Part shown: in pieces, positions 1 through 23,444 of the stretch
Numbering within the stretch: the stretch's first letter is position 1
Layout of the letters: every line of letters begins with the position of its first letter
NCBI GenBank assembly: GCA_002400985.2
Contig: NVRX02000004.1
Coordinates: 83,531 to 107,530 of the forward strand
Length of the DNA stretch: 24,000 nucleotides
Direction: 5' to 3'
DNA from: Candidatus Wolfebacteria bacterium
GTDB lineage: Bacteria; Patescibacteriota; Minisyncoccia; Phycocordibacterales; Phycocordibacteraceae
The notes under the pieces: model-generated
What the model saw: only the letters and a program-made list of their open reading frames with translations
Told to the model about the DNA's origin: nothing
Databases searched by the model: none
Program-made: the position numbers and the translations under genes

Positions 1-2990
1 TCATCTACAGGCCCTGCTGTTGGCCAGTCACACAAATGCACACTTTCAATATCTTGCTCTTCTTTTAGATTCCTATACAGATACTCTGCATAAAACGGCA
101 TTGTTGGTGCCATTACTTTTGAAAGTGTTAGTAGCGTCTTATGTAGGGTGTAGAGTGCTGCCGCAGCATCTTCTCCTCCATTTTTAATACGATCTCGAGA
201 ACGTCGTACATACCAAGTAGAAAGGTCATCTATGAAGTCTAGAAGTGGTCGTGTTGCCTTGTCTAGCTCATACGCATCATATCCACGTTCAGTATCTTTA
301 ATGAGTTGATGTAGGCGAGATGTAATCCAAGTATCAAGAACATTGGTGTTTCCTTTTTTCTTCTCTACGACACTTTCATATAATGAATAAAAAGAAAATA
401 CATTGTGTAGTCTCCCTGTTATTTTTTGAGAAATTTCTTTTACCCCGTCATTTGTAAATACTAAATCTTCCCCCCGTACTATTGAAGAAGACAGCATGTA
501 GTACCTAAGAGCATCTGCACCATACATATCTACAACTTCTATTGGGTCCGAGTAGTTCTTGAGTTTTTTAGCCAGCTTCTTTCCATCCTCGCCAAGAACC
601 ATTCCATTTACAATGACATTTTCAAATGGAGCTTTCCCAAAGAGACCCACCCCAAGAACAATAAGTGAGTAGAACCAACCTCGCGTCTGATCGACACCTT
701 CTGCAATAAATTGTGCAGGATATCCTTTTGGTTTTGAAAACAGCCCACCTTTTGGATTAAAGGTGTCTAGATTTTCATATGGAAAATGCTTTTGTCCATA
801 CGGCATTGCTCCTGACTCAAACCAACAATCAAACACATCGAGAATGCGAGTGTATTCTTCTCCATTTTTCTCCAGAATTATCTCATCAATAAAGGGTCGA
901 TGAAAATCAAGCTCATACTCTGCATTATGTGGAATTGGCACAAATGGAAGATCTCTTGTAGTGCCGGGAAGAACAAAGGCATTTTTGTGTTTTTCCCATA
1001 CCTCTGCACACATTTTCAAATCATGACCTTCCATAACACGCGCAAGCATAAATGCAGGAGAATTGTGCGTAACGATTAAGATTGTTTCATTCTTGTATGT
1101 GTTTTCAATTTCATACAAAAACTCCCCCACTCTTTTCTTTACATCACACCAACTCTCCGCACCTTCAGGACGAGCAAACATTAAATCTTTATTTGTTTCA
1201 AAAAATGCGTGGTACTCCTTTACACTCTTCCCGTTGAAAATTCCAAAGTTAATTTCCCTAAGACGCTCCTCGGTAATTATGTCTTTTTCTGACATACCGA
1301 TTTCAGCAGCAACAATTTTTGCAGTTTGTTGAGTCCTTTTAAGAGGAGACGCGATAATTTTTGTAATACCCTGAAGTTCTTTTGCTGTTTCAAGAGCTTT
1401 CGCGCGACCAGCATCTGTAAGGTCGCTTGGTATAGAGTCATTATGAGTCAGCATCCCTGCTGCATTTGTTTGCGCTTCACCGTGCCTCATAATTGTGTAT
1501 GTATTTCCAGATTTCTTTACATTCTTTTTCAAATCTTCAATACCACCAAGAACAATGCGAGAACCTTCTTTACTTTCCCACACAGGAAGAGGGGCTCCCC
1601 AGAAACGGCTTCTAGAAATTGACCATTCCTTTCCTCCTTTAAGCCAGTTACCAAATCGTTTTGAACCAATTTCTTTTGGCACCCAATTTACCTTTTCATT
1701 TTCTGCAACAAGTTTCTTTGTTATTTTGGGAGCATTAACAAACCATGAATCCATTGCGTAATTGAGCAACGGCTCATCTGTCCTCCATGAATGAGGGTAG
1801 CTATGTTTTATTTTTTCTTTTTTGAAAAGTTTTCCAGCATGCGCAAGATATTTTATTATCTCAATATCAGTTGCCTGGTGATCATCTTTTGGTTTTGCAT
1901 CCATTCCTTTAAAATCAGTCACCTCATCTACAAACTTCCCACTTTTATTTATATGGTGAACAATAGGTATTCCAAATTTTTGCGCAAGCTCTAAATCTTC
2001 CGCTCCAAATGCAGGCGCGATATGCACTGCGCCTGTTCCAGATTCTTCTGTAACATAGTCTGCCGCATAGATTTTCCACGCATTCTCTTTCCCTTCTATG
2101 TCTTTATCTTTGTAATAATTAAAAGGAGGTTCATATTCTTTTCCAACCAAATCTTTTCCCTTCATCTCTTCAAGAACAGTATGTTCAACCTCTTCAAACA
2201 AACTTAGTTTTTCTTTACTAAGAATATATGTGCCATCCAATTTTTCACTTCCTGTTACCTTAACTTTTACATACGTAAGATCTGAATGTACAGCTGCTGC
2301 TGTGTTTCCGGGAAGAGTCCATGGTGTTGTAGTCCACACAAGCAAACTTGTGTCTTCGCCCTTGATTGGCAATTTCACCGTTACTGCAAAATCAGTAATG
2401 TCTTTGTATCCTTGTGCAACTTCAATATTTGAAAGCTCTGTTCCAAGTAATGGGCTTAGATGGAGCACCTTGAACCCTTTGTAGATAAGTTCTTTGTTGT
2501 AGAGTGTTTTAAATACCCACCACACACTTTCTGTATATGAAGGATCCATTGTTCGATAATCATTCTCCATGTCTACAAACCTTCCCAGGCGTGGAATGAT
2601 TTTTTTCCAATCATCTCTATAGGTAAGTACAACTTTTTTTGCTCGCTCTACAAAATTCTCTATTCCTATATCATCTATAATTTCTTGCTTTGTTGAAACA
2701 TTGAACTCTTTCTCTACCTGAGCTTCGAGAGGAAGCCCGTGACAGTCCCAGCCCCAACGACGAGGGACAGTGAATCCTTGCATTGTCTTGTACCTCGGTA
2801 TTGCATCTTTTATTGTACTCGCAAGCACGTGACCAAAGTGAGGTAACCCTGTTGCAAATGGAGGACCATCATAAAAAGTAAAAACTCCCTTTGGGGATTT
2901 TTTACTTAGTGATTTTTGAAAAATGTTTTCTTTGTTCCAAAAATCAAGCACTTCTTCTTCACGCTTTGCAAAATCACTTTTATCACTCAT
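1..2990 (-). CDS. ileS: Isoleucyl-tRNA synthetase, type 2 (eukaryote-like), C-terminal end beyond window; contains a nested histidine-phosphatase (PGAM-like) domain
   Basis: Not in the ORF track because no stop lies in the window. My hand translation from the ATG at 2990..2988 stays open to position 3 (~996 codons). Motifs seen: MSDKSDFAKREEEVLDFWNKENIF, FYDGPPFATGLPHFGH (HIGH region), WTTTPWTLPGN (editing domain), ISRSRFWGAPLPVW, DVFDCWFESGAMPYGQ, AEGVDQTRGWFYS, KLAKKLKNYSDP (KMSKS position), DLSTWYVRRSRDR, ESVHLCDWP. Confidence 0.95.
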   Translation of the reverse strand, partial: MSDKSDFAKREEEVLDFWNKENIFQKSLSKKSPKGVFTFYDGPPFATGLPHFGHVLASTIKDAIPRYKTMQGFTVPRRWGWDCHGLPLEAQVEKEFNVSTKQEIIDDIGIENFVERAKKVVLTYRDDWKKIIPRLGRFVDMENDYRTMDPSYTESVWWVFKTLYNKELIYKGFKVLHLSPLLGTELSNIEVAQGYKDITDFAVTVKLPIKGEDTSLLVWTTTPWTLPGNTAAAVHSDLTYVKVKVTGSEKLDGTYILSKEKLSLFEEVEHTVLEEMKGKDLVGKEYEPPFNYYKDKDIEGKENAWKIYAADYVTEESGTGAVHIAPAFGAEDLELAQKFGIPIVHHINKSGKFVDEVTDFKGMDAKPKDDHQATDIEIIKYLAHAGKLFKKEKIKHSYPHSWRTDEPLLNYAMDSWFVNAPKITKKLVAENEKVNWVPKEIGSKRFGNWLKGGKEWSISRSRFWGAPLPVWESKEGSRIVLGGIEDLKKNVKKSGNTYTIMRHGEAQTNAAGMLTHNDSIPSDLTDAGRAKALETAKELQGITKIIASPLKRTQQTAKIVAAEIGMSEKDIITEERLREINFGIFNGKSVKEYHAFFETNKDLMFARPEGAESWCDVKKRVGEFLYEIENTYKNETILIVTHNSPAFMLARVMEGHDLKMCAEVWEKHKNAFVLPGTTRDLPFVPIPHNAEYELDFHRPFIDEIILEKNGEEYTRILDVFDCWFESGAMPYGQKHFPYENLDTFNPKGGLFSKPKGYPAQFIAEGVDQTRGWFYSLIVLGVGLFGKAPFENVIVNGMVLGEDGKKLAKKLKNYSDPIEVVDMYGADALRYYMLSSSIVRGEDLVFTNDGVKEISQKITGRLHNVFSFYSLYESVVEKKKGNTNVLDTWITSRLHQLIKDTERGYDAYELDKATRPLLDFIDDLSTWYVRRSRDRIKNGGEDAAAALYTLHKTLLTLSKVMAPTMPFYAEYLYRNLKEEQDIESVHLCDWPTAGPVD

Positions 2991-3029: not shown

Positions 3030-4661
3030 CTACATTCGTTCTGGGGCAGGAATTCCCAATATCCACAACCCATTTTCAAGTGTTGTAGCCACGGCAGCAA
3101 CAAGGAGTAACTTGTACCCTTCATACTCCCCTCCCAATATTTTTTCTTGTGCATAAAACCTATTAAACATTGCTGCAACCTCTGTTAGGTACTGGGTGAC
3201 ATGGTGTGGTTCATACCTACCTTGGGCAAACTCAACAACCTCAGGAAATCTATACAGTATTTTTTCTAAGTCGTATACAGACTCTGGAGTAACTGCATCT
3301 GCATCATCTTTTGTACTGTCTGCAAGAAGTTTTCTCGCACGCACCAATGCATATTGCAGATATGGTCCTGAGTCTCCTTCTGTAGAAAGAGACTTTTCTA
3401 CATCAAACACAATGTCTCCTCCAGCTTGTTGTTTTAAAATACTGTATTTAATTGCACCTACAGCAACTTGTTGTGCTGTTGCATCATCAGGACTTTGTTT
3501 ACGCACTTTCTCAACAAGATCTTCAATGAGTGATTTTGCGGTAATAATATTTCCCATTCGTGAAGCCATCTTCCCTTCTGACAATTTCATCAGTCCATTT
3601 GAGAGATGTGTGATTTTCTTTGCCTGCTCTGGGTGTATTTCTGCAAGCGCTTCTTTTACTACCTTAAAATACTCGATTTGTTCTTTTCCGGTAAGGATAA
3701 TTGATTGATCATGTTCCCACCATGCATCTTTTATAGTTTCAAGCCCAAGTTCTTTTGCCTCATATGTTGGCGTTCCCTGCTTTGTCCTAAACACTCGTGT
3801 ATGAAGCCCTTTCTTTTCTCCCTCGTAGACAATAGCGCCATCACTTTCTACAAATACCCCCTTCTTTATTCCCTCCTCTACAATCTTCATCCCAATAGGC
3901 GCTGATTCACTTTCAAAAATAAACCTATCAAGCTTTGTGCCAAACACATCCAGAATGTCTGAAACTGCTTTCATGGAAATATCCTTTCCTGCAGAGTGTT
4001 CTTTCATGAGCTCTTTATCTTCTCCAAGATATATTGCCTTATTTAAAGCGTCTATTTCTTTTTTTGCAGAATCGTTTTCTTCATACTCCTTTGCGCCATA
4101 CGCATACGCTTCCCCAATAACCTCAGGGGTTAATTCTTTTTTTAGTTCTCGTAATCCATACAGAGCCTTTGCAACATGCGGACCAACGTCCCCGCCATAT
4201 GACTCTCTTTTTACTTCTGCTCCAGAAAACTCCAAAAGCCTACTTAATGCTTCTCCAATTGAGATTCCCATAAGGTGTCCTATGTGAAGTTGCTTAAATG
4301 CATTTGCATTCACATATTCAATAATTATCTTTGTATCTACACGTGAAGTGTTACTTCCCCACAACCTTCCTAGAGAAGATATTACTTTTAAAGACTGGGT
4401 GTAGAAATCACGAGAAAATGTGAAGTTAATAAACCCGGGCCCAGCAACAGAAACCTTACTTAGAAAAGAAAGTTTTATCTTTGCAGCGATTTCCTCAGCA
4501 AGCTCTTTTGGGTTTACCCGCCTTTCTTTTGCGAGAGCCATTGCAATGTTTGTTGCATAATCTCCATGCTCAAGATCTTGAGGGTGCTCAAAATACACAA
4601 CTGAGATATCTACTCCCGCTGCCTGTGCTACTGCCTTTTGTAACTCACCTACAATATTCAT
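3030..4661 (-). CDS. argS: Arginyl-tRNA synthetase
   Basis: 543 aa ORF. It has the N-terminal Arg-tRNA-binding-like region, the class I signature NANAFKQLHIGHLMG, the anticodon-binding DALR-type C-terminus and the family-typical terminal ...PERM. It follows glyA after a 9 nt gap. Confidence 0.95.
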   Translation of the reverse strand: MNIVGELQKAVAQAAGVDISVVYFEHPQDLEHGDYATNIAMALAKERRVNPKELAEEIAAKIKLSFLSKVSVAGPGFINFTFSRDFYTQSLKVISSLGRLWGSNTSRVDTKIIIEYVNANAFKQLHIGHLMGISIGEALSRLLEFSGAEVKRESYGGDVGPHVAKALYGLRELKKELTPEVIGEAYAYGAKEYEENDSAKKEIDALNKAIYLGEDKELMKEHSAGKDISMKAVSDILDVFGTKLDRFIFESESAPIGMKIVEEGIKKGVFVESDGAIVYEGEKKGLHTRVFRTKQGTPTYEAKELGLETIKDAWWEHDQSIILTGKEQIEYFKVVKEALAEIHPEQAKKITHLSNGLMKLSEGKMASRMGNIITAKSLIEDLVEKVRKQSPDDATAQQVAVGAIKYSILKQQAGGDIVFDVEKSLSTEGDSGPYLQYALVRARKLLADSTKDDADAVTPESVYDLEKILYRFPEVVEFAQGRYEPHHVTQYLTEVAAMFNRFYAQEKILGGEYEGYKLLLVAAVATTLENGLWILGIPAPERM

Positions 4662-6427: not shown

Positions 6428-7795
6428 ATGGTACGTTTAGACAATCTAACTCATGTAACAAGAAATATTGAAGGCGGAGGGAGTGTACTTGTGCTTGATA
6501 CAGGCGCAGCTATTACTCCACCAGCTCAAGCAATGCTTGCAGCACTTCATTCCAGAAGTGTTGGGGGTATAAGAGAACATCTTGAAGTCCTTGATAAAAA
6601 AGGTTTTGAGAAATTCATGAAAACCTATTATGTCGGATATGGACATAAATCTATCGGAGACTGCGGAAGTATCACAGTCTTCATTGAAGGGATTTCCATG
6701 CTTGCTGCAAAAGCTATTCAAGATTTTCGCCTATATGACGGGCAAGAAGCTTCAACAAGATATATCGACTTCAGTAAACAAGATTTTATTAATCCTGTTG
6801 GACTAAAAACAGGAAGAGATATCTTGGAATATCAACGTACTTTTTATCTTAAGGGACTTGAAATTTTAAAGCCGTATTTGGCTGCAGAATTTCCCCTCAA
6901 AGAGAAAGGGCGTGAAGTAGCTCATACAAAAATGTTGGATGCTCGTGCATTCGATATTATGAGGGCATTCTTACCGGCTGGTGCATCAACGAACTTGGCG
7001 TGGCATGGGAAAATTCGTATTTTTGGGGATAGACTCCCTGAACTTCGAAATCACCCACTTGCTGAGGTTCGCAATATTGCAACAGCACTTCACGAGGCTT
7101 TGTATGAAGCTTTTCCAGACTCATTTCAAGAGCCTGGAAAAATCTACCGAGAAACTGAGAAGTATATTGCAAAATATATGGGGTTATCATATTACGATGA
7201 GCCTAAATCTTTCTCTTTTGAGCTTACAAGGAACGAACTCCGTGAGAAAAATTTCTCTCCCGAAGTTAAGTCTTTGCTAAAAGAGCGCCCCAATGGAAAA
7301 ACGGAACTTCCAAAATGGCTTGAAGGACTTGGACAGATTCAGTTTAAATTTCTTTTAGATTTTGGATCTTTTCGGGATGTGCAACGACACAGGGCGGTGA
7401 TACAACGTATGCCGATCTTGAATATGAATCACGGCTTCGAACCTTGGTACCTTAAGCAAATGCCTGAGGATCTGAAGGAAGAAGCGGTGGAACATCTTCG
7501 TGTTCTTGAGGACAGACTGGAAGACTTATCAGTTGATCCTGCATTGCTGCAGTACTATATCCCAATGGGATATCGATGTACAAACTGCATAACGGGCGGA
7601 TTACCAGCCCTTGTGTACTTGATCGAACTTCGCTCACAAAGCACTGTTCATCCAACGCTTCGCGTTATTGCGCAGCGAATGGGTAGTGAATTAGGAGGAA
7701 TGTTCAAAGACCTTGCTCTTTACTATGACAAGTCTGAAGATCACCTCGACATTCGTCGTGGTGAACAAGATATTGTTATAAATGAAGATGCATAA
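6428..7795 (+). CDS. thyX: Long-form flavin-dependent thymidylate synthase (ThyX-like, apparently two fused/diverged Thy1 halves)
   Basis: 455 aa with a strong SD (aaaggagacctgaATG). The N-terminal half has ISMLAAKAIQDFRLYDGQEASTRY, resembling the ThyX xRHRxxSxxQxSxRY motif but with DFR in place of RHR. The C-terminal half has FGSFRDVQRHRAV (RHR at 7385..7393). Neighbours are glyA, tmk and an NTP-PPase. Assignment rests on motif recall, not a search. Confidence 0.55.
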   Translation: MVRLDNLTHVTRNIEGGGSVLVLDTGAAITPPAQAMLAALHSRSVGGIREHLEVLDKKGFEKFMKTYYVGYGHKSIGDCGSITVFIEGISMLAAKAIQDFRLYDGQEASTRYIDFSKQDFINPVGLKTGRDILEYQRTFYLKGLEILKPYLAAEFPLKEKGREVAHTKMLDARAFDIMRAFLPAGASTNLAWHGKIRIFGDRLPELRNHPLAEVRNIATALHEALYEAFPDSFQEPGKIYRETEKYIAKYMGLSYYDEPKSFSFELTRNELREKNFSPEVKSLLKERPNGKTELPKWLEGLGQIQFKFLLDFGSFRDVQRHRAVIQRMPILNMNHGFEPWYLKQMPEDLKEEAVEHLRVLEDRLEDLSVDPALLQYYIPMGYRCTNCITGGLPALVYLIELRSQSTVHPTLRVIAQRMGSELGGMFKDLALYYDKSEDHLDIRRGEQDIVINEDA

Positions 7796-11724: not shown

Positions 11725-11769
11725 ACATTAAGTATAGCAACTTATATCTCTTGTGTGTTCTAAATCTTG

Positions 11770-11842
11770 GGCGGCCGCCGGGAATCGAACCCGGATTGAC
11801 AGTACCACAAACTGTAGTGTTAACCGTTACACCACGGTCGCC
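11770..11842 (-). tRNA. tRNA-His (GTG) with genomically encoded G-1
   Basis: Hand-folded cloverleaf: G-1, acceptor GCGACCG/CGGCCGC (A4.C69 mismatch), D stem GTGT/ACAC, anticodon stem ACAGT/ACTGT, loop TTGTGGT, T arm CCGGG-TTCGATT-CCCGG, discriminator C. No encoded CCA. Confidence 0.9.
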
Positions 11843-14253: not shown

Positions 14254-14326
14254 GGGCGATTAGCTCAGTTGGTAGAGCAGTTCATTTACACTGAAAAGGT
14301 CGGGGGTTCAAATCCCTCATCGCCCA
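14254..14326 (+). tRNA. tRNA-Val (TAC)
   Basis: Acceptor GGGCGAT/ATCGCCC, D arm GCTC-AGTTGGTA-GAGC, anticodon loop TTTACAC, T arm GGGGG-TTCAAAT-CCCTC, discriminator A. No encoded CCA. Confidence 0.9.
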
Positions 14327-14333
14327 CAACAAT

Positions 14334-14846: not shown

Positions 14847-14853
14847 TATTTTG

Positions 14854-14925
14854 TGCTCCCGGCAGGAATCGAACCTACATCAAAGGCTTAGAACACCTTT
14901 GTTCTATCCATTGAACTACGGGAGC
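14854..14925 (-). tRNA. tRNA-Arg (TCT)
   Basis: Acceptor GCTCCCG/CGGGAGC, D arm GTTC-AATGGATA-GAAC, anticodon stem AAGGT/GCCTT, loop GTTCTAA, 4-nt variable region, T arm GTAGG-TTCGATT-CCTGC, discriminator A. No encoded CCA. Confidence 0.88.
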
Positions 14926-14941
14926 TCCCTACACCCTACGG

Positions 14942-15280
14942 CTAGTTTCGTGCTGGGTCAACAAAAGGATATGGAGTATCTATGGCAGACCTTTTTTCAG
15001 CGGCTCTTTTATCAAAAATATTTTCTACTATTTCTAACCGATCCGATATTCCTTCGGTATCTCTTGATGGAGGATTCGTGTCTACGTTTTCAGAAAGAGG
15101 CTCTCCTTCGTATACACGAGCAAAGAAAACTGCATTGGTAGCGGCAGAAATAAAGAGTAGTACAAGAGCCATACCCAAGAGTATTCCCCAGTCTCTCTCT
15201 GCTCGTATTTTTCCAGAATACCCCTTCTTAATAATTCTGAATATTTCTGTAGCTTTTTTTGTAAGAATTTTTATGTCCAT
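14942..15280 (-). CDS. Small single-pass membrane protein, fourth gene of the pilMNO operon
   Basis: 112 aa with one TM (WGILLGMALVLLFISAATNAVFF). Its start lies 1 nt after the pilO-like stop (TAAtATG). I recognise no family. Confidence 0.5.
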   Translation of the reverse strand: MDIKILTKKATEIFRIIKKGYSGKIRAERDWGILLGMALVLLFISAATNAVFFARVYEGEPLSENVDTNPPSRDTEGISDRLEIVENIFDKRAAEKRSAIDTPYPFVDPARN

Positions 15281-15281
15281 A

Positions 15282-15794
15282 TTATTTTTGCTTTACGCTA
15301 TACGATGCAGAGGCCGTCCATATTTCTTTTGTATCCCCTTCACGGAGAATAGTCTCTATCGTTCCACTTTCAATCCCTATAAATACTGGCAGTTTTTCAA
15401 TAGCAGAAAGTGTTTTCATCACATTTTTAAATGAGCCTTCAATAGTTAGATTGATGTTGAAAACACTTTCTTCCCCAGCACCAACAGAAACAATATCTAA
15501 TGCCACATTTGTTTCTTCTTCTATCCCCTCTAATGTTTCCAAGAAATCTACAATCGTCTCCTCTGATACAAGATATTCAAATATTGTTTTTTCTTGTGAT
15601 TCTATAAGTGAAAGGGTTCTCTCTGCCCTATTAATTCGCTCCTCCTTATCAAGAGATGCTTTTATTTCTTTTTGTAGCAAGAAACTTTCTTCTTGTAGCT
15701 GTGACACCACATTAAACGTGATGAAATATGCTGCTCCAGCGCCCGCTAACACAGTAATTGAAAGTACTAGAGATATAAGTGTTTGCCGATTCAT
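15282..15794 (-). CDS. pilO: PilO-like type IV pilus assembly protein
   Basis: 170 aa with an N-terminal TM, a coiled-coil segment and a C-terminal alpha/beta region. ATGA overlap with pilN. The call rests on topology and position, not strong motifs. Confidence 0.5.
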   Translation of the reverse strand: MNRQTLISLVLSITVLAGAGAAYFITFNVVSQLQEESFLLQKEIKASLDKEERINRAERTLSLIESQEKTIFEYLVSEETIVDFLETLEGIEEETNVALDIVSVGAGEESVFNINLTIEGSFKNVMKTLSAIEKLPVFIGIESGTIETILREGDTKEIWTASASYSVKQK

Positions 15795-16327
15795 GATTCT
15801 AATATTATTGAAATAGTAAATGGCAGGTCTTTTTCTCTTGAAAGGTTTCCTATTGGGAAGTCAACACCTATAATTTTCTCTCGTTCTTCAAGCCGTTTTG
15901 CAAAACTTCGGAGAGAATCTCTGTCCGTGGCTATACCTCGAACACTTATTTGTACATTTGCATCTTTTGGACTGTACGTTATTTGTGTAATTTTAATTCC
16001 AATACGAGACACTTCCAAAACCTCTTCTGTTGCAGCAACAAATAATGGTTGCATGGGCAGCGTTTCAAGAAGTGAAAGATTTTTGTTTAAAATACGCAAC
16101 CGCTCCTCAACCTCTTCACTCCCTGATGCAGCAAGTGTTCTTCCTAAAAACTCTTTTTCTATCTCCTGGCTTATTACTCGTTCTTGTAGGAAAACATATG
16201 AAGGAACGAGTAATATGCTGTGAATAACAAAAAGTATTGCTCCCGTAAACAAAGACAGGGAAAGTAGCCTGAGAAGATACATTCTCTTAAAGCGGTGTTT
16301 GCTATGTTCTGGTAAAAGATTAATCAT
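15791..16327 (-). CDS. pilN: PilN-like type IV pilus assembly protein
   Basis: Start MINLLPEHSK (the PilN INLLP motif), followed by a TM helix and coiled coil. It overlaps the pilM end by 8 nt. Confidence 0.7.
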   Translation of the reverse strand: MINLLPEHSKHRFKRMYLLRLLSLSLFTGAILFVIHSILLVPSYVFLQERVISQEIEKEFLGRTLAASGSEEVEERLRILNKNLSLLETLPMQPLFVAATEEVLEVSRIGIKITQITYSPKDANVQISVRGIATDRDSLRSFAKRLEEREKIIGVDFPIGNLSREKDLPFTISIILES

Positions 16328-17414
16328 TGATATATTCTCGAAGCGCCAAGCCCATTGCAACGCTATAACTTAATGACTGTTCATACTCGATTGGCGGGAC
16401 AACCTCATTGAATGGAGCAAGATTCACAAAAGGGTTTCCTGTTCGCACAGGAACACCTACAGATGCCATTAAGTACTCAGGTAGTCCACGCAAACTTCCA
16501 TTTCCTCCTGCAAGAATAATCATTTCAATAGGTTTTACTGATTTTTCTTTCCGTGCTCGATCCTGCCAATATTCAAATCTTTTAGATACTTCATCACGAA
16601 ATCCAGAAAGTGTTGTGAGCACTGATGATAGGTACCCAACATTTCCTTCTTCTAGGAGAATACCCTTCTCTCTTTTAATTACATCTGCCTCTTCTTCTGT
16701 AACTCCATAAAACTTTTGTACGGCCACAGTGAGTGCATGGCCTCCAATATCAAGCGTTGTTGAAAATAACGGATGCTTTCCATTCTGAATGATCATTATT
16801 TTTGTTGTTGTTTTTCCATAATCAACAATCATACACGTCACGCTCTCCCCTGTAGGGAGCAGTGCTCTGGGGAGTGCATGCATTTCACTCTCCATTGATC
16901 GTGTAATGATATCGCTTGCAGACACAGCGTCTGTATATTCGGCAACAACTCTTCTGGCATATGCCACACCAGCCACATGTTGAATATTCTTTTCTCTAAA
17001 CAAGCGTCCTGTATCAAATGCCGCCTCGTGTATCGGAAGTGGCACTTTCTCAGTAATCTTCCCCGCAACTGAAGCACGGATAATGTTGTCATCTTTTGTA
17101 TACGGCACCTGTGTTTGAAATAAATATGATTTCTGTTCAGGAAGAGCAACGCTTGCAAAATGTACTCCGTGAGATTTTTTAATTTTTTGCAACACGCTCT
17201 GTATAACGCTTCTTTCTACTAAATCTCCATCGACAATTACACCTTTCTTGAAACGGTACGTCCCAAAAGATTCAATAATAACCCCTGCAACAGAGCGGTT
17301 TAACACAACAAACTTCACCCCGCTTGTCGACATGTCGATACCGGCTGTTGGCATTTTTAAAAAGCGCGGAGGAGGAAAAAGCGCGCGAAAGGTTCCTGAT
17401 GCTTCTTGTGCCAT
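16320..17414 (-). CDS. pilM: Type IV pilus assembly ATPase-fold protein PilM
   Basis: Actin-like fold motifs: AGIDMSTSGVKFVVL, MIVDYGKTTTKIMII, DIGGHALT, ILAGGNGSLRGLPEYL. The ATG at 17414 has TATACT 6 nt upstream; the track start 17420 is a GTG. Confidence 0.85.
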   Translation of the reverse strand: MAQEASGTFRALFPPPRFLKMPTAGIDMSTSGVKFVVLNRSVAGVIIESFGTYRFKKGVIVDGDLVERSVIQSVLQKIKKSHGVHFASVALPEQKSYLFQTQVPYTKDDNIIRASVAGKITEKVPLPIHEAAFDTGRLFREKNIQHVAGVAYARRVVAEYTDAVSASDIITRSMESEMHALPRALLPTGESVTCMIVDYGKTTTKIMIIQNGKHPLFSTTLDIGGHALTVAVQKFYGVTEEEADVIKREKGILLEEGNVGYLSSVLTTLSGFRDEVSKRFEYWQDRARKEKSVKPIEMIILAGGNGSLRGLPEYLMASVGVPVRTGNPFVNLAPFNEVVPPIEYEQSLSYSVAMGLALREYIND

Positions 17415-17453
17415 GTACACAGTATACCTTCTGATTGTTAATTCATTTTGTAT

Positions 17454-18083
17454 TTAAAGAAAGAACTGTACAAAAAGACTTGCGACAATAATTACAGCCA
17501 CAATACTTATAATAATTCCCGTTGTGCCAAGAAAACGAAGTGTTCGTAGCACTAGGGCAAGTCCTGGCTTTCCAAAGAAAGCCACCAAAAAAGCAATGAC
17601 ACCGAACCGAATGACACGCGCTAACACCACTCCAATTAAAAATGCTCCAAAGTTAACTTTAAACACCCCAGCAGCGAGAAGAAATGGAACCCAAGGGATG
17701 GGAGTTACTCCCACAAAAAGAAGTCCGAGTATCACATTGAGATTGAAAAGTTTCTGCACTTCAACAAACACTGACTCTCCTCCCACGAAAGAAACAAGAA
17801 CTGTTCCAAATAAATCAAAAAAGAATGCACCTAGAATATAGGTGATGATGGCACCAACAGTTGTAAACAATACGGTAAATAATGTATAGAAAATCCATTT
17901 CTTTGGTTTTGCCAAAACTAACGCTGCGAGAATGATTTCTGGAGGGAAGAATATTATTATGGAATCAAGCATTGCAGCTGCTGCAAGTAATGACATCCCA
18001 ACAGGTCCATCTCCACGGTTCTCAAACCACTGCCACCATGATGGCTTCTCTTCTATTTTCTCTTCTGGTATTTCTAATGTCAT
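17454..18083 (-). CDS. YqaA/DedA-type (VTT/SNARE-associated domain) membrane protein
   Basis: LDSIIIFFPPEIILAALVLAKP, VGAIITYILG and GVTPIPWVPFLLAAGVFKVNF match the YqaA-like pattern. It is multi-TM. ATGA overlap with the upstream gene. Confidence 0.7.
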   Translation of the reverse strand: MTLEIPEEKIEEKPSWWQWFENRGDGPVGMSLLAAAAMLDSIIIFFPPEIILAALVLAKPKKWIFYTLFTVLFTTVGAIITYILGAFFFDLFGTVLVSFVGGESVFVEVQKLFNLNVILGLLFVGVTPIPWVPFLLAAGVFKVNFGAFLIGVVLARVIRFGVIAFLVAFFGKPGLALVLRTLRFLGTTGIIISIVAVIIVASLFVQFFL

Positions 18084-18397
18084 CCTATTTTTATTCCTGA
18101 CACAACTTCTTCTGTTGGAGAAAGAAACGCTTTTCCTTCGGGCACAAGAATCATCCCGTTACTTTCAAGACCTCGTATCAAGCGCATATCAAGATTCGTA
18201 ATAAATGGAAATTGCTTTCCTACAAGATCTTCCGCTGCCTCTACCCTATCGCGAATTCCTGAGATAATTTGCCGGTGCTCTTCTTCTCCAAAATCAACAG
18301 TAAGCTGAACAAGCCTGTCTGTTTCTGGAACAAACTCTGCCTGCATCACCGTTCCAATACGAATCTCTAATTTTGAAAAATCATCTATTGTTGCCAT
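18080..18397 (-). CDS. Stand-alone tRNA-binding domain protein (CsaA/Trbp111/EMAP-like OB fold)
   Basis: DFSKLEIRIGTVMQAE...LVQLTVDFGEE..RQIISGI...LVGKQFPFITNL....IRGLESNGMIL is typical of the tRNA_bind domain found at MetRS C-termini and PheRS-beta N-termini. Confidence 0.8.
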   Translation of the reverse strand: MATIDDFSKLEIRIGTVMQAEFVPETDRLVQLTVDFGEEEHRQIISGIRDRVEAAEDLVGKQFPFITNLDMRLIRGLESNGMILVPEGKAFLSPTEEVVSGIKIG

Positions 18398-19167: not shown

Positions 19168-19257
<90 letters not shown>

Positions 19258-23364: not shown

Positions 23365-23437
23365 CCGCCCATAGCTCAGTTGGTAGAGCAGCTCCCTTTT
23401 AAGGAGAAGGTCCTAGGTTCGAGCCCTAGTGGGCGGA
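23365..23437 (+). tRNA. tRNA-Lys (TTT)
   Basis: Acceptor CCGCCCA/TGGGCGG (C1:G72), D arm GCTC-AGTTGGTA-GAGC, anticodon stem GCTCC/GGAGA, loop CTTTTAA, T arm CTAGG-TTCGAGC-CCTAG, discriminator A. No CCA. Confidence 0.88.
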
Positions 23438-23444
23438 CAAGTAT

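What the first reader, a model, noticed from the sequence alone, without database searches (positions are those of the whole stretch)
900..1530. Complete histidine-phosphatase (PGAM-like) domain nested inside the catalytic domain of IleRS
Hand translation of the minus strand shows two conserved IleRS blocks: ISRSRFWGAPLPVWESKEGSRIVLGGIEDLKK (ends ~1524) and ELDFHRPFIDEI...DVFDCWFESGAMPY (starts ~914). About 200 in-frame codons lie between them, with no stops.

Those codons read as a full branch-1 histidine phosphatase:
- TYTIMRHGEAQTN, with RHG at 1487..1479.
- IASPLKRTQQTA.
- RLREINFGIFNG.
- ARPEGAESW.
- ILIVTHNSPAF, with the second His at 1067..1065.

The order and spacing parallel E. coli GpmB almost block for block. 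The catalytic core residues (Arg-His, Arg, Glu, His) all appear retained, so this looks like an active enzyme inserted into a surface loop of the Rossmann fold. It does not look like a degenerate spacer.

In the type 2 IleRS sequences I remember, this loop is only a few tens of residues. I know of no described IleRS with this architecture.

Possible roles, all speculative:
- Removal of 3'-phosphate or cyclic-phosphate ends from tRNA before charging.
- Turnover of a phosphorylated nucleotide by-product or alarmone.
- A housekeeping phosphatase made in fixed stoichiometry with the synthetase in a minimal genome.
Basis: partly seen in the sequence, partly recalled or inferred. Interest (0 to 1): 0.87.

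Follow-up and report, generated by a model that had tools for sequence, protein, structure and literature searches.

The report
Active phosphatase domain nested inside IleRS
The gene for isoleucyl-tRNA synthetase in this Parcubacteria (Wolfebacteria) genome carries a complete, apparently active histidine-phosphatase enzyme spliced into a small surface subdomain, and this arrangement is conserved across a large group of ultra-small bacteria yet seems never to have been described or explained.

Summary
The minus-strand ORF starting at 2990 is a type-2 IleRS (TIGR00392, 831 bits). About 206 in-frame codons (nt 1523..915) replace an 8-residue connection in subdomain CP3. They form a complete branch-1 histidine phosphatase (Pfam His_Phos_1, E=6e-32; AF2 alone pLDDT 92.7; TM 0.75 to PhoE).

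It is not an artefact. The identical protein (MBL1434093.1, 1154 aa) occurs in independent assemblies. All 120 best homologues and 80/80 species-representative genome loci carry the nested domain in one ORF. R502, H503, R552 and H642 are invariant and E579 is nearly so. Insert dN/dS is 0.02-0.09.

New findings:
- In Parcubacteria with insert-free IleRS, the closest stand-alone phosphatase gene lies immediately upstream of ileS (5/5 lineages, often with a 4-bp overlap). Separate and nested states were mutually exclusive.
- Relatives carry the phosphatase at four different IleRS sites and in 2-4 copies, every complete copy with its catalytic residues.
- Fused enzymes have lost the CP3 zinc-knuckle cysteines.

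The substrate is unknown. The nearest relatives are small-molecule phosphatases, and a tRNA-end role is not excluded. No literature description was found. I rate it a new variant of a known kind, interest about 0.66.

The parts
1..2990 (-). ileS gene: type-2 isoleucyl-tRNA synthetase with a nested phosphatase. It is truncated by the window edge (996 of 1154 codons held).
   Evidence: ORF and translation. TIGR00392 ileS scores 831 bits against a cut-off of 621. It is 100% identical to P0091 / MBL1434093.1. The AF2 model has pLDDT 93.6, and its body superposes on 1ILE at TM 0.91.
1524..2990 (-). IleRS N-terminal part (aa 1-489). It comprises the first Rossmann half with HIGH motif HFGH (nt 2840..2829), the CP1 editing domain (about aa 197-400), CP2, the CP2-3 linker ISRSRFWG (nt 1619..1596) and the first strands of CP3.
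   Evidence: Pfam tRNA-synt_1 stretch at aa 14-494. Motif coordinates. Domain names by alignment to ScIleRS.
1503..1523 (-). Entry linker NVKKSGN (aa 490-496). S494, G495 and N496 are conserved in at least 90% of fused homologues.
   Evidence: Alignment A1. pLDDT is 96 in blocks 481-500.
942..1502 (-). Complete branch-1 histidine phosphatase domain (aa 497-683), running from beta1 TYTIMR to the last strand TRDL.
   Evidence: Pfam PF00300 E=6e-32. AF2 alone gives pLDDT 92.7 and pTM 0.90. Foldseek gives PhoE 1h2e at TM 0.75 and PspA 4ij5 at 0.73. dN/dS is 0.02-0.09 in related pairs.
1482..1487 (-). Catalytic Arg502-His503 (RHG motif). His503 is the predicted phospho-acceptor.
   Evidence: R and H are each 120/120 invariant. 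They are also retained in every tandem copy of the multi-domain relatives.
1335..1337 (-). Arg552 of the phosphate pocket (SPLKRT).
   Evidence: 120/120 invariant.
1254..1256 (-). Glu579, the predicted general acid/base (RLREINFG).
   Evidence: 117 E and 3 D of 120.
1065..1067 (-). His642, the second catalytic histidine (IVTHN).
   Evidence: 120/120 invariant.
915..941 (-). Exit linker PFVPIPHNAEY (aa 684-692). The consensus is (L)PFxPLPHN. It is conserved only in nested forms; stand-alone homologues end before it.
   Evidence: F683, P685, P687, H688 and N689 are at least 90% conserved. Stand-alone proteins terminate after the last strand.
336..914 (-). Rest of CP3 (ELDFHRPFIDEI..., WFESG at nt 824..810), the second Rossmann half, the KMSKS-equivalent loop KLAKK (nt 578..564) and the stem-contact fold.
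   Evidence: Second tRNA-synt_1 stretch and tRNA-synt_1g at aa 787-863. Motifs.
3..335 (-). Anticodon-binding helical domain (aa 886-996), cut by the window edge.
   Evidence: Pfam Anticodon_1 at aa 886-991, E=5e-26.
3030..4661 (-). argS (arginyl-tRNA synthetase), directly upstream of ileS with a 39-bp spacer. In relatives with insert-free IleRS, the stand-alone phosphatase gene sits between argS and ileS. Here that slot is empty.
   Evidence: Pfam Arg_tRNA_synt_N, tRNA-synt_1d and DALR_1. Synteny in L082-L090 and L096.

Best explanation
The segment is a complete, catalytically competent branch-1 histidine phosphatase of the short PhoE/PspA/CobC type. It is nested in the CP3 subdomain of an otherwise intact type-2 IleRS, making one bifunctional polypeptide.

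**Shown:**
- The synthetase keeps its HIGH motif, a KMSKS-type loop, the editing motifs and its fold.
- The insert is an autonomous alpha/beta domain joined by two short, conserved linkers.
- Its catalytic set (Arg502, His503, Arg552, Glu579, His642) is essentially invariant, and the domain is under purifying selection.
- The architecture is conserved across Paceibacteria/Parcubacteria.
- In Parcubacteria whose IleRS has no insert, the most similar phosphatase is a separate gene immediately upstream of ileS, often overlapping it by 4 bp.
- Separate and nested states were mutually exclusive in the loci examined.

**Inferred:**
- The nested domain derives from this neighbouring partner gene by a local rearrangement into a permissive hairpin. 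That hairpin is the former CP3 zinc knuckle, whose cysteines were then lost.
- The domain hydrolyses a phosphomonoester through a phospho-His503 intermediate, with Glu579 as the acid/base.
- Nesting serves to lock the phosphatase to IleRS in fixed stoichiometry and location, rather than to build one precise channel. This follows from relatives carrying the same domain at four different IleRS positions and in 2-4 copies.
- My leading reading of the substrate is a small phosphorylated metabolite or nucleotide (about 0.4), because every close sequence and structure relative is a small-molecule phosphatase.

Layered confidence:
- Real nested domain: 0.97.
- Catalytically active: 0.8.
- Origin from the ileS-linked partner family: 0.6.
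- Small-molecule substrate: 0.4.
For: **Domain identity**
- Domain calls.
- Boundaries against solved IleRS. CP3 assignment: (PMC7955072).
- Full model pLDDT 93.6, pTM 0.87. Its body superposes on 1ILE at TM 0.91.
- Insert alone pLDDT 92.7. Nearest folds are PhoE, PspA, GpgP, CobC and a riboflavin-pathway phosphatase at TM 0.70-0.75.

**Conservation**
- Catalytic residues: R, H, R and H each 120/120, E 117/120. They are retained in every complete tandem copy.
- dN/dS in the insert is 0.02-0.09.

**Distribution**
- 120/120 best homologues carry PF00300.
- 80/80 GTDB species loci have one nested domain in one ORF and no separate phosphatase gene nearby.
- 96 of the 150 closest cluster representatives are IleRS-embedded.

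**Partner gene**
- Stand-alone homologues lie directly upstream of insert-free ileS in 5/5 lineages, next to two IleRS subtypes. Three of them overlap ileS by 4 bp.
- The families share specific motifs.
- Mean identity of the stand-alones to the nested domains is 33%, against 36% among the nested domains themselves and 28% to any other group.

**Other**
- Zinc-knuckle cysteines are present in insert-free enzymes and absent in 105/113 fused enzymes.
- Four insertion sites and 2-4 copies occur in relatives.
Against: - No activity has been measured, so the substrate class is inference only.
- The phosphatase-domain phylogeny is unresolved (bootstrap 0/100 for the combined clade). Derivation from the neighbouring gene is therefore plausible but not demonstrated, and excision from ileS to a separate gene is not excluded.
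- The argS-ileS-recO block mixes unrelated functions. Adjacency alone is thus weak evidence of functional coupling in these streamlined genomes.
- A purely 'hitch-hiking' small-molecule enzyme does not easily explain why the domain became nested in IleRS at four different sites rather than staying adjacent or fusing terminally.
I could not measure where the phosphatase active site points relative to the synthetic site, the editing site or the tRNA path.
Confidence: 0.5

Rival explanations
1. tRNA-directed phosphatase. The domain removes a blocking 2'/3'-terminal phosphate or pyrophosphate from the acceptor end of tRNA(Ile), or acts on another phosphorylated aa-tRNA-related species. This would render the tRNA chargeable in cis, just before aminoacylation. 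It would be an acceptor-end 'healing' activity built into a synthetase.
For: - The association with IleRS is obligatory, whether as a coupled upstream gene or as a nested domain, and it occurs at four sites.
- The insertion begins ~25 residues after the CP2-3 linker that lines the tRNA CCA-end pocket.
- A related phosphatase subfamily is embedded with 4-bp overlaps in gatC-gatA-x-hisphos-gatB. GatCAB is another enzyme that works on the tRNA acceptor end.
- tRNA genes here lack encoded CCA, so 3'-end metabolism is active (weak support).
- From my own knowledge, not tested here: toxSAS toxins that pyrophosphorylate the tRNA CCA end are a precedent for 3'-phosphorylated tRNA.
Against: - All nearest sequence and structure relatives act on small molecules.
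- Net charge of the domains is near neutral (-1.7 +/- 6.7), with no basic bias.
- I know of no branch-1 histidine phosphatase that acts on RNA 3'-phosphates.
- Tethering to one synthetase would serve only one tRNA family.
- The gatCAB case comes from one lineage only, since the three genomes share wider synteny.
- No PADLOC defence match was found.
Confidence: 0.25
2. Phosphoprotein phosphatase or regulatory module. The domain dephosphorylates IleRS itself, for example after phosphorylation by a HipA-like or Hanks-type kinase near the KMSKS loop, or dephosphorylates a partner protein. Alternatively it binds a phospho-metabolite and allosterically couples IleRS activity to metabolic state.
For: - Some members of the superfamily are protein phosphatases. 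SixA gives a weak match of 30.7 bits. Sts-1 and PGAM5 are examples from my own knowledge.
- The cis arrangement and conserved rigid linkers would suit intramolecular action or allostery.
- The fast, lineage-specific divergence of the domain surface in some clades would fit a protein-protein interface under change.
Against: - SixA, Sts and PGAM5 are not among the best sequence or fold matches, and the SixA cut-off of 74.5 bits is not met.
- No kinase is evident in the window.
- There is no evidence that IleRS is phosphorylated in these organisms.
Confidence: 0.1
3. Structural replacement. The domain is kept mainly as a scaffold that stabilises CP3 after loss of the zinc knuckle, and catalysis is vestigial.
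For: - Fused enzymes have lost the CP3 cysteines, while insert-free neighbours keep them.
- The insert surface diverges much faster than the synthetase body (40% against 61% mean identity).
Against: - The whole catalytic set is essentially invariant over 120 sequences that are only ~40% identical in this domain, and in all extra copies.
- dN/dS is 0.02-0.09.
- Eukaryotic IleRS manage without either the zinc site or the insert.
Confidence: 0.04
4. Artefact: a chimeric assembly, a frameshifted pair of genes, or an intein-like mobile insertion.
For: Some database fragments look like split genes (P0014, P0022, P0034).
Against: - Those fragments lie on frameshift-ridden assemblies in which neighbouring genes are fragmented too.
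- The identical 1154-aa protein is present in NCBI, ENA and Logan assemblies, on contigs up to 479 kb.
- 80/80 species genomes have one uninterrupted ORF.
- Base composition is uniform across the region.
- There is no Hint/intein Pfam hit, and the junction residues are not splice-competent (and the sequence itself).
Confidence: 0.01

Closest known systems
Type-2 (eukaryote-like) isoleucyl-tRNA synthetase, e.g. T. thermophilus IleRS (1ILE), S. cerevisiae IleRS (7D5C, 8WND), P. megaterium IleRS2 (8C8U/V)
   Same: - It scores above the curated ileS cut-off.
- It has the same domain order: Rossmann fold, CP core, CP1 editing, CP2, CP3, SC-fold, anticodon-binding domain and DUF5915 C-terminal domains.
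- The model body superposes at TM 0.83-0.91.
- The HIGH, KMSKS-type and editing motifs are present.
   Different: - CP3 carries a ~200-residue enzyme domain where the reference enzymes have ~8 residues.
- The CP3 zinc-knuckle cysteines found in insert-free Parcubacterial IleRS are absent.
- KMSKS reads KLAKK in this genome.
Short branch-1 histidine phosphatases: PhoE/YhfR (1H2E, 1EBB), PspA phosphoserine phosphatase (4IJ5), CobC alpha-ribazole phosphatase (6E4B, 6NRU), GpgP Rv2419c (4PZ9)
   Same: - Same fold (TM 0.70-0.75 over ~180-190 columns).
- Same catalytic RHG...R...E...H set.
- Similar size, about 190-205 aa.
   Different: - It is not a free protein; it is nested within another enzyme.
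- Identity is only 19-29%.
- It misses every curated family cut-off (PspA 70 against 350; CobC 79 against 163; GpmB 57 against 261; dPGM_arch 86 against 225), so no substrate can be transferred.
- The cap region between E579 and E612 is shortened.
Stand-alone ileS-linked phosphatases of Parcubacteria (P0020, P0026, P0036, P0042, P0049; unnamed family)
   Same: - These are the closest free relatives, at 34-40% identity.
- They share the motifs N-x-Y-hhh-RHGE, RLR(D/E)INFGIF-GK, ESW-DVKKRV and KTILIV(S/T)H.
- They sit in the same argS...ileS...recO neighbourhood.
   Different: - They are separate genes translationally coupled to ileS rather than nested.
- They lack the PFxPLPHN exit linker.
- Their IleRS partner keeps the CP3 zinc knuckle.
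IleRS with an added GNAT domain (NCBIfam NF040702 'ileS_w_GNAT')
   Same: It is another curated case of an IleRS that has acquired a second enzyme domain.
   Different: The extra domain belongs to a different family (acetyltransferase). The window protein scores 290 bits against a cut-off of 1999, so it is not a member.
Bifunctional RNase H / CobC-type acid phosphatase (Rv2228c type, NCBIfam PRK07238)
   Same: It is a histidine phosphatase of the same short type fused to an enzyme that acts on nucleic acid, and it is the best NCBIfam match of the insert (87 bits).
   Different: It is an end-to-end fusion rather than a nested one, and the partner enzyme differs. The score is far below the cut-off of 326.
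CP1 editing domain of class Ia synthetases
   Same: It is the precedent for a whole hydrolytic domain nested inside the class I catalytic body that acts in cis on the enzyme's own substrate.
   Different: CP1 is universal and ancient and hydrolyses aminoacyl esters. The phosphatase is lineage-specific, sits in CP3, and no link to the tRNA substrate has been shown.

Membership tests
Isoleucyl-tRNA synthetase (TIGR00392 ileS; type 2) | Whole-protein score above the curated equivalog cut-off | tested here: met
   831.2 bits against a cut-off of 621.4, even for the truncated 996-aa product.
Isoleucyl-tRNA synthetase (TIGR00392 ileS; type 2) | Class I signature motifs HIGH and KMSKS | tested here: met
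   HFGH at aa 51-54. The KMSKS position reads KLAKK at aa 805-809, and both lysines (K805, K808) are invariant in 113 homologues. The M-to-L and S-to-A changes are unusual for the family.
Isoleucyl-tRNA synthetase (TIGR00392 ileS; type 2) | CP1 editing domain with the threonine-rich peptide and the conserved His/Asp region | tested here: met
   WTTTPWTLPGN and GTGAVHIAPAFGAEDLE are present and invariant or nearly so.
Isoleucyl-tRNA synthetase (TIGR00392 ileS; type 2) | Overall fold of type-2 rather than type-1 IleRS | tested here: met
   Target-normalised TM is 0.91 to 1ILE, 0.87 to 8WND_B and 0.83 to 8C8V, against 0.65-0.75 for type-1 enzymes. PDB sequence E-values are ~1e-200 against 1e-93.
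Isoleucyl-tRNA synthetase (TIGR00392 ileS; type 2) | Aminoacylation of tRNA(Ile) with isoleucine | not testable with these tools
   This needs an enzyme assay. The gene sits in the same argS-ileS-recO position as insert-free ileS in relatives, which argues that it is the housekeeping gene.
Histidine phosphatase superfamily, branch 1 (Pfam PF00300) | Profile score above the gathering threshold | tested here: met
   111.3 bits (115.9 for the insert alone) against 21.7.
Histidine phosphatase superfamily, branch 1 (Pfam PF00300) | Catalytic core: RHG histidine, two arginines, second histidine, acidic proton donor | tested here: met
   R502, H503, R552, E579 and H642 are all present. R, H, R and H are each 120/120 and E is 117/120.
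Histidine phosphatase superfamily, branch 1 (Pfam PF00300) | Complete alpha/beta fold | tested here: met
   AF2 on the insert alone gives pLDDT 92.7 and pTM 0.90. Foldseek aligns 178-192 columns with full-length PhoE and PspA at TM 0.73-0.75.
Histidine phosphatase superfamily, branch 1 (Pfam PF00300) | Phosphatase or mutase activity via a phospho-histidine intermediate | not testable with these tools
   This needs biochemistry (pNPP, a substrate panel, a H503A control).
Cofactor-dependent phosphoglycerate mutase (dPGM: GpmA, GpmB, archaeal dPGM) | Score above the curated family cut-offs | tested here: not met
   dPGM_arch scores 86 against 225, GpmB PRK03482 56.6 against 261, and pgm_1 TIGR01258 17.5 against 81.7. 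The sequence reads EINFG where E. coli GpmA has ERHYG (my own knowledge of GpmA).
Alpha-ribazole phosphatase CobC / phosphoserine phosphatase PspA / phosphohistidine phosphatase SixA | Score above the curated family cut-offs | tested here: not met
   CobC TIGR03162 scores 78.9 against 162.9, PspA 70.1 against 350, and SixA 30.7 against 74.5.
IleRS with GNAT domain (NF040702) | Score above the cut-off and presence of a GNAT domain | tested here: not met
   289.6 bits against 1999, and no acetyltransferase domain in Pfam.
Inteins / mobile protein-splicing elements | Hint domain and splice-competent junction residues | tested here: not met
   No Hint or intein family in Pfam. The conserved HN of the exit linker is followed by Ala or a variable residue rather than Cys, Ser or Thr. 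The domain has the phosphatase fold.

The most novel reading that the evidence does not exclude
The phosphatase is a dedicated, cis-acting partner of IleRS that works on the macromolecular substrate. It would remove a blocking 2'/3'-terminal phosphate or pyrophosphate from tRNA(Ile), or reverse a phosphorylation that inactivates the synthetase. That would give a new class of synthetase-embedded 'substrate repair' activity, analogous in logic to the CP1 editing domain. Its recurrent nesting at four sites, its alternative life as a translationally coupled upstream gene, and the relative embedded in gatCAB would then all reflect selection for acting at the tRNA acceptor end.
Probability: 0.25. 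Interest if true: 0.9.

Novelty: new variant of a known kind. Interest (0 to 1): 0.66.

Why it matters
Aminoacyl-tRNA synthetases are among the most conserved enzymes known. Lineage-specific catalytic domains added to them have repeatedly revealed new biology, such as editing, signalling and resistance. This case matters for four reasons.

- **Unexplained coupling.** A second, apparently active enzyme sits inside the catalytic body of an essential synthetase across a large clade of the Candidate Phyla Radiation. It has a clear Rosetta-stone relationship to a coupled neighbour gene and has become nested several times. This implies a physiological link between a phosphatase and IleRS that nobody has explained. 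It is directly testable with one recombinant protein.
- **Annotation.** These proteins are labelled 'class I tRNA ligase family protein'. The hidden His_Phos domain could be miscounted as a phosphoglycerate mutase or PhoE in metabolic reconstructions of CPR genomes.
- **Protein engineering.** CP3 and the SC-fold/anticodon-domain junction emerge as natural permissive sites for inserting whole domains into a class Ia synthetase.
- **Phylogenetics.** IleRS is a common marker, and a 200-residue insert that evolves out of step with its host can distort alignments.

Tried and rejected
- **Split-gene idea.** Short two-domain proteins on long contigs (P0014, P0022, P0034) looked like natural split IleRS. 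P0014's contig is frameshift-ridden and its neighbouring genes are also fragmented, so I rejected this.
- **Cassette swapping shown at DNA level.** The pair L114/L137 has saturated dS in the insert against 0.28 in the core. The profile shows a mosaic spanning codons ~440-960, much larger than the insert. That is general recombination or an assembly chimera, so I did not use it as evidence. The DNA of P0100 could not be retrieved, so the sharp P0100/P0102 discontinuity remains unexplained.
- **Remnant of a stand-alone phosphatase gene.** I searched the argS-ileS gap of the close relative L096 and found no signal.
- **Phosphatase-domain phylogeny to count insertion events.** The NJ tree is star-like. 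Only two clades are supported, and the site-B domains get 0/100. The first bootstrap run timed out.
- **Generic RNA-binding signature.** Net charge is near neutral, which is uninformative.
- **Defence-system link.** No PADLOC hit. The only PHROG match is a family of unknown function.
- **Geometry of the phosphatase active site relative to the synthetic and editing sites.** Model coordinates are not exposed.
- **AFDB search.** The library was unavailable.
- **Literature.** Eight searches found no description. The AARS Online domain catalogue lists no phosphatase, and PMC12945691 was irrelevant.
- **Distant stand-alone homologues.** P0084 and P0090 have unrelated gene contexts.

Full report
**1. 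The observation**

The minus strand carries an ORF that starts at ATG 2990 and runs without a stop to the left edge of the window, with 996 codons held.
- ISRSRFWG...IEDLKK ends at nt 1524.
- RHG is at 1487..1479.
- IASPLKRT, RLREINFG and ARPEGAESW follow in order.
- The second histidine is at 1067..1065.
- ELDFHRPF begins at nt 914.

Pfam finds tRNA-synt_1 in two stretches (E=6.7e-126). His_Phos_1 lies between them at aa 500-659 (E=6e-32, 111 bits against a gathering score of 21.7), and Anticodon_1 follows. NCBIfam calls the protein ileS above the curated cut-off (831 against 621 bits). GC content is uniform across the insert and its flanks.

**2. It is not an artefact**

- The identical full-length protein (P0091, 1154 aa, MBL1434093.1, Candidatus Wolfebacteria) is held by NCBI, ENA and Logan assemblies on contigs up to 479 kb.
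- All 120 best full-length homologues (54-74% identity) carry PF00300 in the same position. They include Wolfe-, Kaiser- and Pacebacteria, Minisyncoccia, UBA2103 and UBA2163.
In all 80, one uninterrupted ORF holds IleRS sequence on both sides of a single phosphatase domain.
- Short 'two-domain' database entries that looked like split genes lie on frameshift-ridden assemblies.

**3. Anatomy**

*Boundaries.* Against human cytoplasmic IleRS (9w01), query residue 488 aligns with 489 and query 695 with 498. About 206 residues therefore replace eight.

*Location.* By the domain boundaries given for yeast IleRS, CP3 spans residues 459-526 and the CP2-3 linker is ARDWNVSRNRYWG, which forms part of the pocket for the tRNA CCA end and reveromycin (PMC7955072). 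The insertion lies inside CP3, about 25 residues after that linker.

*Full-length model.* The AF2 model is confident throughout (pLDDT 93.6, pTM 0.87; insert blocks 93-98). Its body superposes on type-2 IleRS structures at TM 0.91 to 1ILE, 0.87 to yeast and 0.83 to P. megaterium IleRS2, against 0.65-0.75 for type-1 enzymes.

*Insert alone.* Modelled on its own, with stand-alone homologues as the alignment, the insert folds at pLDDT 92.7 and pTM 0.90. It matches full-length PhoE, PspA, GpgP, CobC and a riboflavin-pathway phosphatase at TM 0.70-0.75 over 178-192 columns. It is a complete, autonomous domain spanning aa 497-683.

*Linkers.* The domain is joined by an entry linker (KKSGN) and an exit linker (PFxPLPHN). 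Both are at least 90% conserved among fused proteins.

*Zinc knuckle.* Insert-free Parcubacterial IleRS have a CxxC...CxC/CxxC zinc knuckle around this hairpin. Of 113 fused enzymes, 105 have no cysteine there.

**4. Is the phosphatase alive?**

- Across 120 fused homologues, R502, H503, R552 and H642 are invariant and E579 is E in 117 and D in 3. The domain as a whole is only about 40% identical.
- Nei-Gojobori estimates on closely related gene pairs give dN/dS of 0.02-0.09 in the insert, similar to the synthetase body. dS is near 1, so the values are rough, but they are clearly far below 1.
- Insert length is held at 199-213 residues.
- The IleRS part keeps its HIGH motif, both lysines of the KMSKS loop and the editing motifs.

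I infer that both activities are retained. Neither was measured.

**5. What kind of phosphatase?**

The best sequence matches in the PDB are PspA phosphoserine phosphatase (E=7e-13) and PhoE. The best NCBIfam matches are the phosphatase half of the RNase H/acid phosphatase family, archaeal dPGM, CobC and PspA. All of these fall far below their curated cut-offs. The domain therefore belongs to branch 1 of the superfamily, but to no characterised subfamily, and no substrate can be transferred.

The dPGM-type residues after the catalytic Glu are not present: the sequence reads EINFG where E. coli GpmA has ERHYG (my own knowledge of GpmA).

**6. The key contextual result**

The closest stand-alone homologues are P0049, P0026, P0020, P0036 and P0042 (187-195 aa, 34-40% identical), all from Parcubacteria. 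In five of five lineages the gene sits directly upstream of an insert-free ileS (907-980 aa), in a conserved smpB / argS / phosphatase / ileS / small ORF / recO block.
- In three lineages the phosphatase stop overlaps the ileS start by 4 bp. In one the gap is 7 bp. In one, two extra genes intervene.
- The partner IleRS belong to two different subtypes.
- In the window, and in its relative L096, argS is followed by ileS with no phosphatase gene between them.
- None of the 80 fused loci has a separate phosphatase gene nearby.

The phosphatase is therefore either a translationally coupled neighbour of ileS or a domain within it. This is a Rosetta-stone relationship.

The two forms share family-specific motifs. 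The stand-alones are nearly as similar to the nested domains (33%) as the nested domains are to each other (36%), and more similar than any other group (28%). The domain tree is otherwise unresolved, so the direction and number of transfer events are not established.

**7. Variants in relatives**

An exhaustive search of 1.84 billion cluster representatives with the insert found 96 IleRS-embedded proteins among the 150 best. Of these, 87 have one copy, 8 have two and 1 has three or more.

Alignment to the window protein and to an insert-free IleRS shows four distinct insertion points:
- **Site A:** the window's site in CP3.
- **Site A':** the tip of the same hairpin, about 15 residues downstream (P0327, copy 2).
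- **Site C:** just after WFESGSMPY (P0259, copy 1).
- **Site B:** between the stem-contact fold and the anticodon-binding domain (P0259, P0346 and P0319, copy 2).

P0211 has at least four tandem copies. Every complete copy keeps the catalytic set. In the two-copy proteins, one of which is from Candidatus Peribacteria, the first copies form a clade with 100/100 support. The duplication is therefore old, and both copies have been kept.

Recurrent nesting at different positions argues for selection, or at least strong tolerance, for covalent tethering to IleRS. It argues against a single exact geometry.

**8. Function**

*Shown:* a conserved, selected, complete phosphatase domain tied to IleRS.

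*Inferred:* phosphomonoester hydrolysis through phospho-His503.

The substrate is unknown. My estimates are:
- **Small phosphorylated metabolite or nucleotide (about 0.4).** All close relatives are small-molecule enzymes, the domain has no basic bias, and its position in IleRS is flexible.
- **tRNA-acceptor-end phosphatase (about 0.25).** This is the most interesting rival. It is supported by the exclusive association with IleRS, the proximity in sequence to the CCA-pocket linker, and a related subfamily embedded in gatC-gatA-x-phosphatase-gatB. That last arrangement comes from one lineage only.
- **Protein-phosphatase or allosteric role (about 0.1).**
- **Purely structural role (about 0.04).**

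A caveat applies to any inference from neighbourhood. The argS-ileS-recO block mixes unrelated functions, so adjacency by itself is weak evidence. In small, drift-prone genomes a neighbouring gene is also the likeliest donor for a neutral local insertion.

**9. An unexplained feature**

The insert evolves out of step with its host. The correlation between core identity and insert identity is only r=0.41.
- P0100 and P0102 are 96% identical in the core but 55% identical in the insert. The drop is bounded exactly at the two linkers.
- The window's closest core relatives (79-80%) have inserts only 41-46% identical. More distant cores (66-69%) have inserts 62-63% identical.
- In other clades the insert is as conserved as the core.

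The cause is either lineage-specific acceleration or cassette exchange through the conserved linkers. I could not obtain the DNA needed to tell these apart.

**10. Novelty**

Eight full-text searches found no paper that links IleRS, or any synthetase, with a histidine-phosphatase domain. The AARS Online domain catalogue lists none. NCBIfam has a curated model for an IleRS with a GNAT domain but none for this architecture.

The sequences are public but annotated generically. I classify the finding as a new variant of a known kind: a synthetase with an acquired accessory enzyme domain. It is unusual in being nested, catalytically intact, recurrent at several sites, and paired with a coupled-gene alternative state.

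Noticed in passing
Related proteins P0327, P0259, P0346, P0319, P0266, P0289, P0288, P0322, P0211: These IleRS relatives carry 2, 3 or at least 4 histidine-phosphatase domains, at four different insertion points (CP3 site A, hairpin tip A', after WFESG, and the SC-fold/anticodon-domain junction). Every complete copy keeps its catalytic residues. One of the proteins is from Candidatus Peribacteria.
   Followed up: yes
P0100 vs P0102; window protein vs P0092/94/95 and P0096/99: The insert diverges out of step with its host. One pair is 96% identical in the core but 55% identical in the insert, with the drop bounded exactly at the two linkers. The rank order of insert similarity and core similarity is also incongruent for the window protein. 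The cause could be cassette exchange or lineage-specific acceleration, and this is unresolved.
   Followed up: partly
L091 3144-3740, L094 5001-5570, L095 5001-5570: A related stand-alone histidine phosphatase (36% identical to the insert) is embedded in gatC-gatA-(150-aa unknown)-phosphatase-gatB, with 4-bp overlaps, in three related genomes. This is a second association of the phosphatase type with an enzyme that forms aminoacyl-tRNA.
   Followed up: partly
window 564..578 (-): The KMSKS loop of this IleRS reads KLAKK. Met and Ser at positions 2-3 are at least 90% conserved among 113 fused homologues, so this genome deviates at a catalytic signature motif. Both lysines are retained.
   Followed up: no
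L085 6561-9284, L088, L090, L082, L086 vs alignment A1: Insert-free Parcubacterial IleRS keep a CxxC...CxC/CxxC zinc knuckle in CP3. Of 113 fused IleRS, 105 have no cysteine there.
   Followed up: yes
window 11769..11841, 14254..14327, 14853..14925, 19168..19257, 23365..23438: Five tRNA genes (His, Val, Arg, Ser, Lys) are present, and none encodes the 3'-CCA. The CCA must therefore be added enzymatically.
   Followed up: partly
window 6428..7795 (+): A 455-aa ORF matches ThyX (Thy1) only over aa 46-230. The C-terminal ~220 residues have no assigned domain.
   Followed up: no
window 18080..18397 (-): A stand-alone 105-aa tRNA-binding domain protein (tRNA_bind, Trbp111-like) lies next to RuvX.
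   Followed up: no
window 14942..16360 (-): Three consecutive ORFs (112, 170 and 189 aa) have no Pfam match. They lie immediately downstream of PilM (16320..17420), so they are probably divergent pilus-assembly partners.
   Followed up: no
L114 vs L137 (ileS genes): Nucleotide identity along the gene is mosaic: 100% over codons 1-280, 62-90% over ~440-960, and 96-98% after 960. This is strain-level recombination or a chimeric metagenome assembly. The divergent stretch is larger than the insert.
   Followed up: partly
L096 2585-3000: The window's relative (CP174360.1) has a 417-bp argS-ileS spacer with a 67-aa ORF, where the window has only 39 bp. The spacer has no similarity to the phosphatase, and its nature is unknown.
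   Followed up: partly
L082 4838-7600: In one lineage, a radical-SAM gene lies between argS and the stand-alone phosphatase gene, and a PALP (pyridoxal-phosphate enzyme) gene lies between the phosphatase gene and ileS.
   Followed up: no
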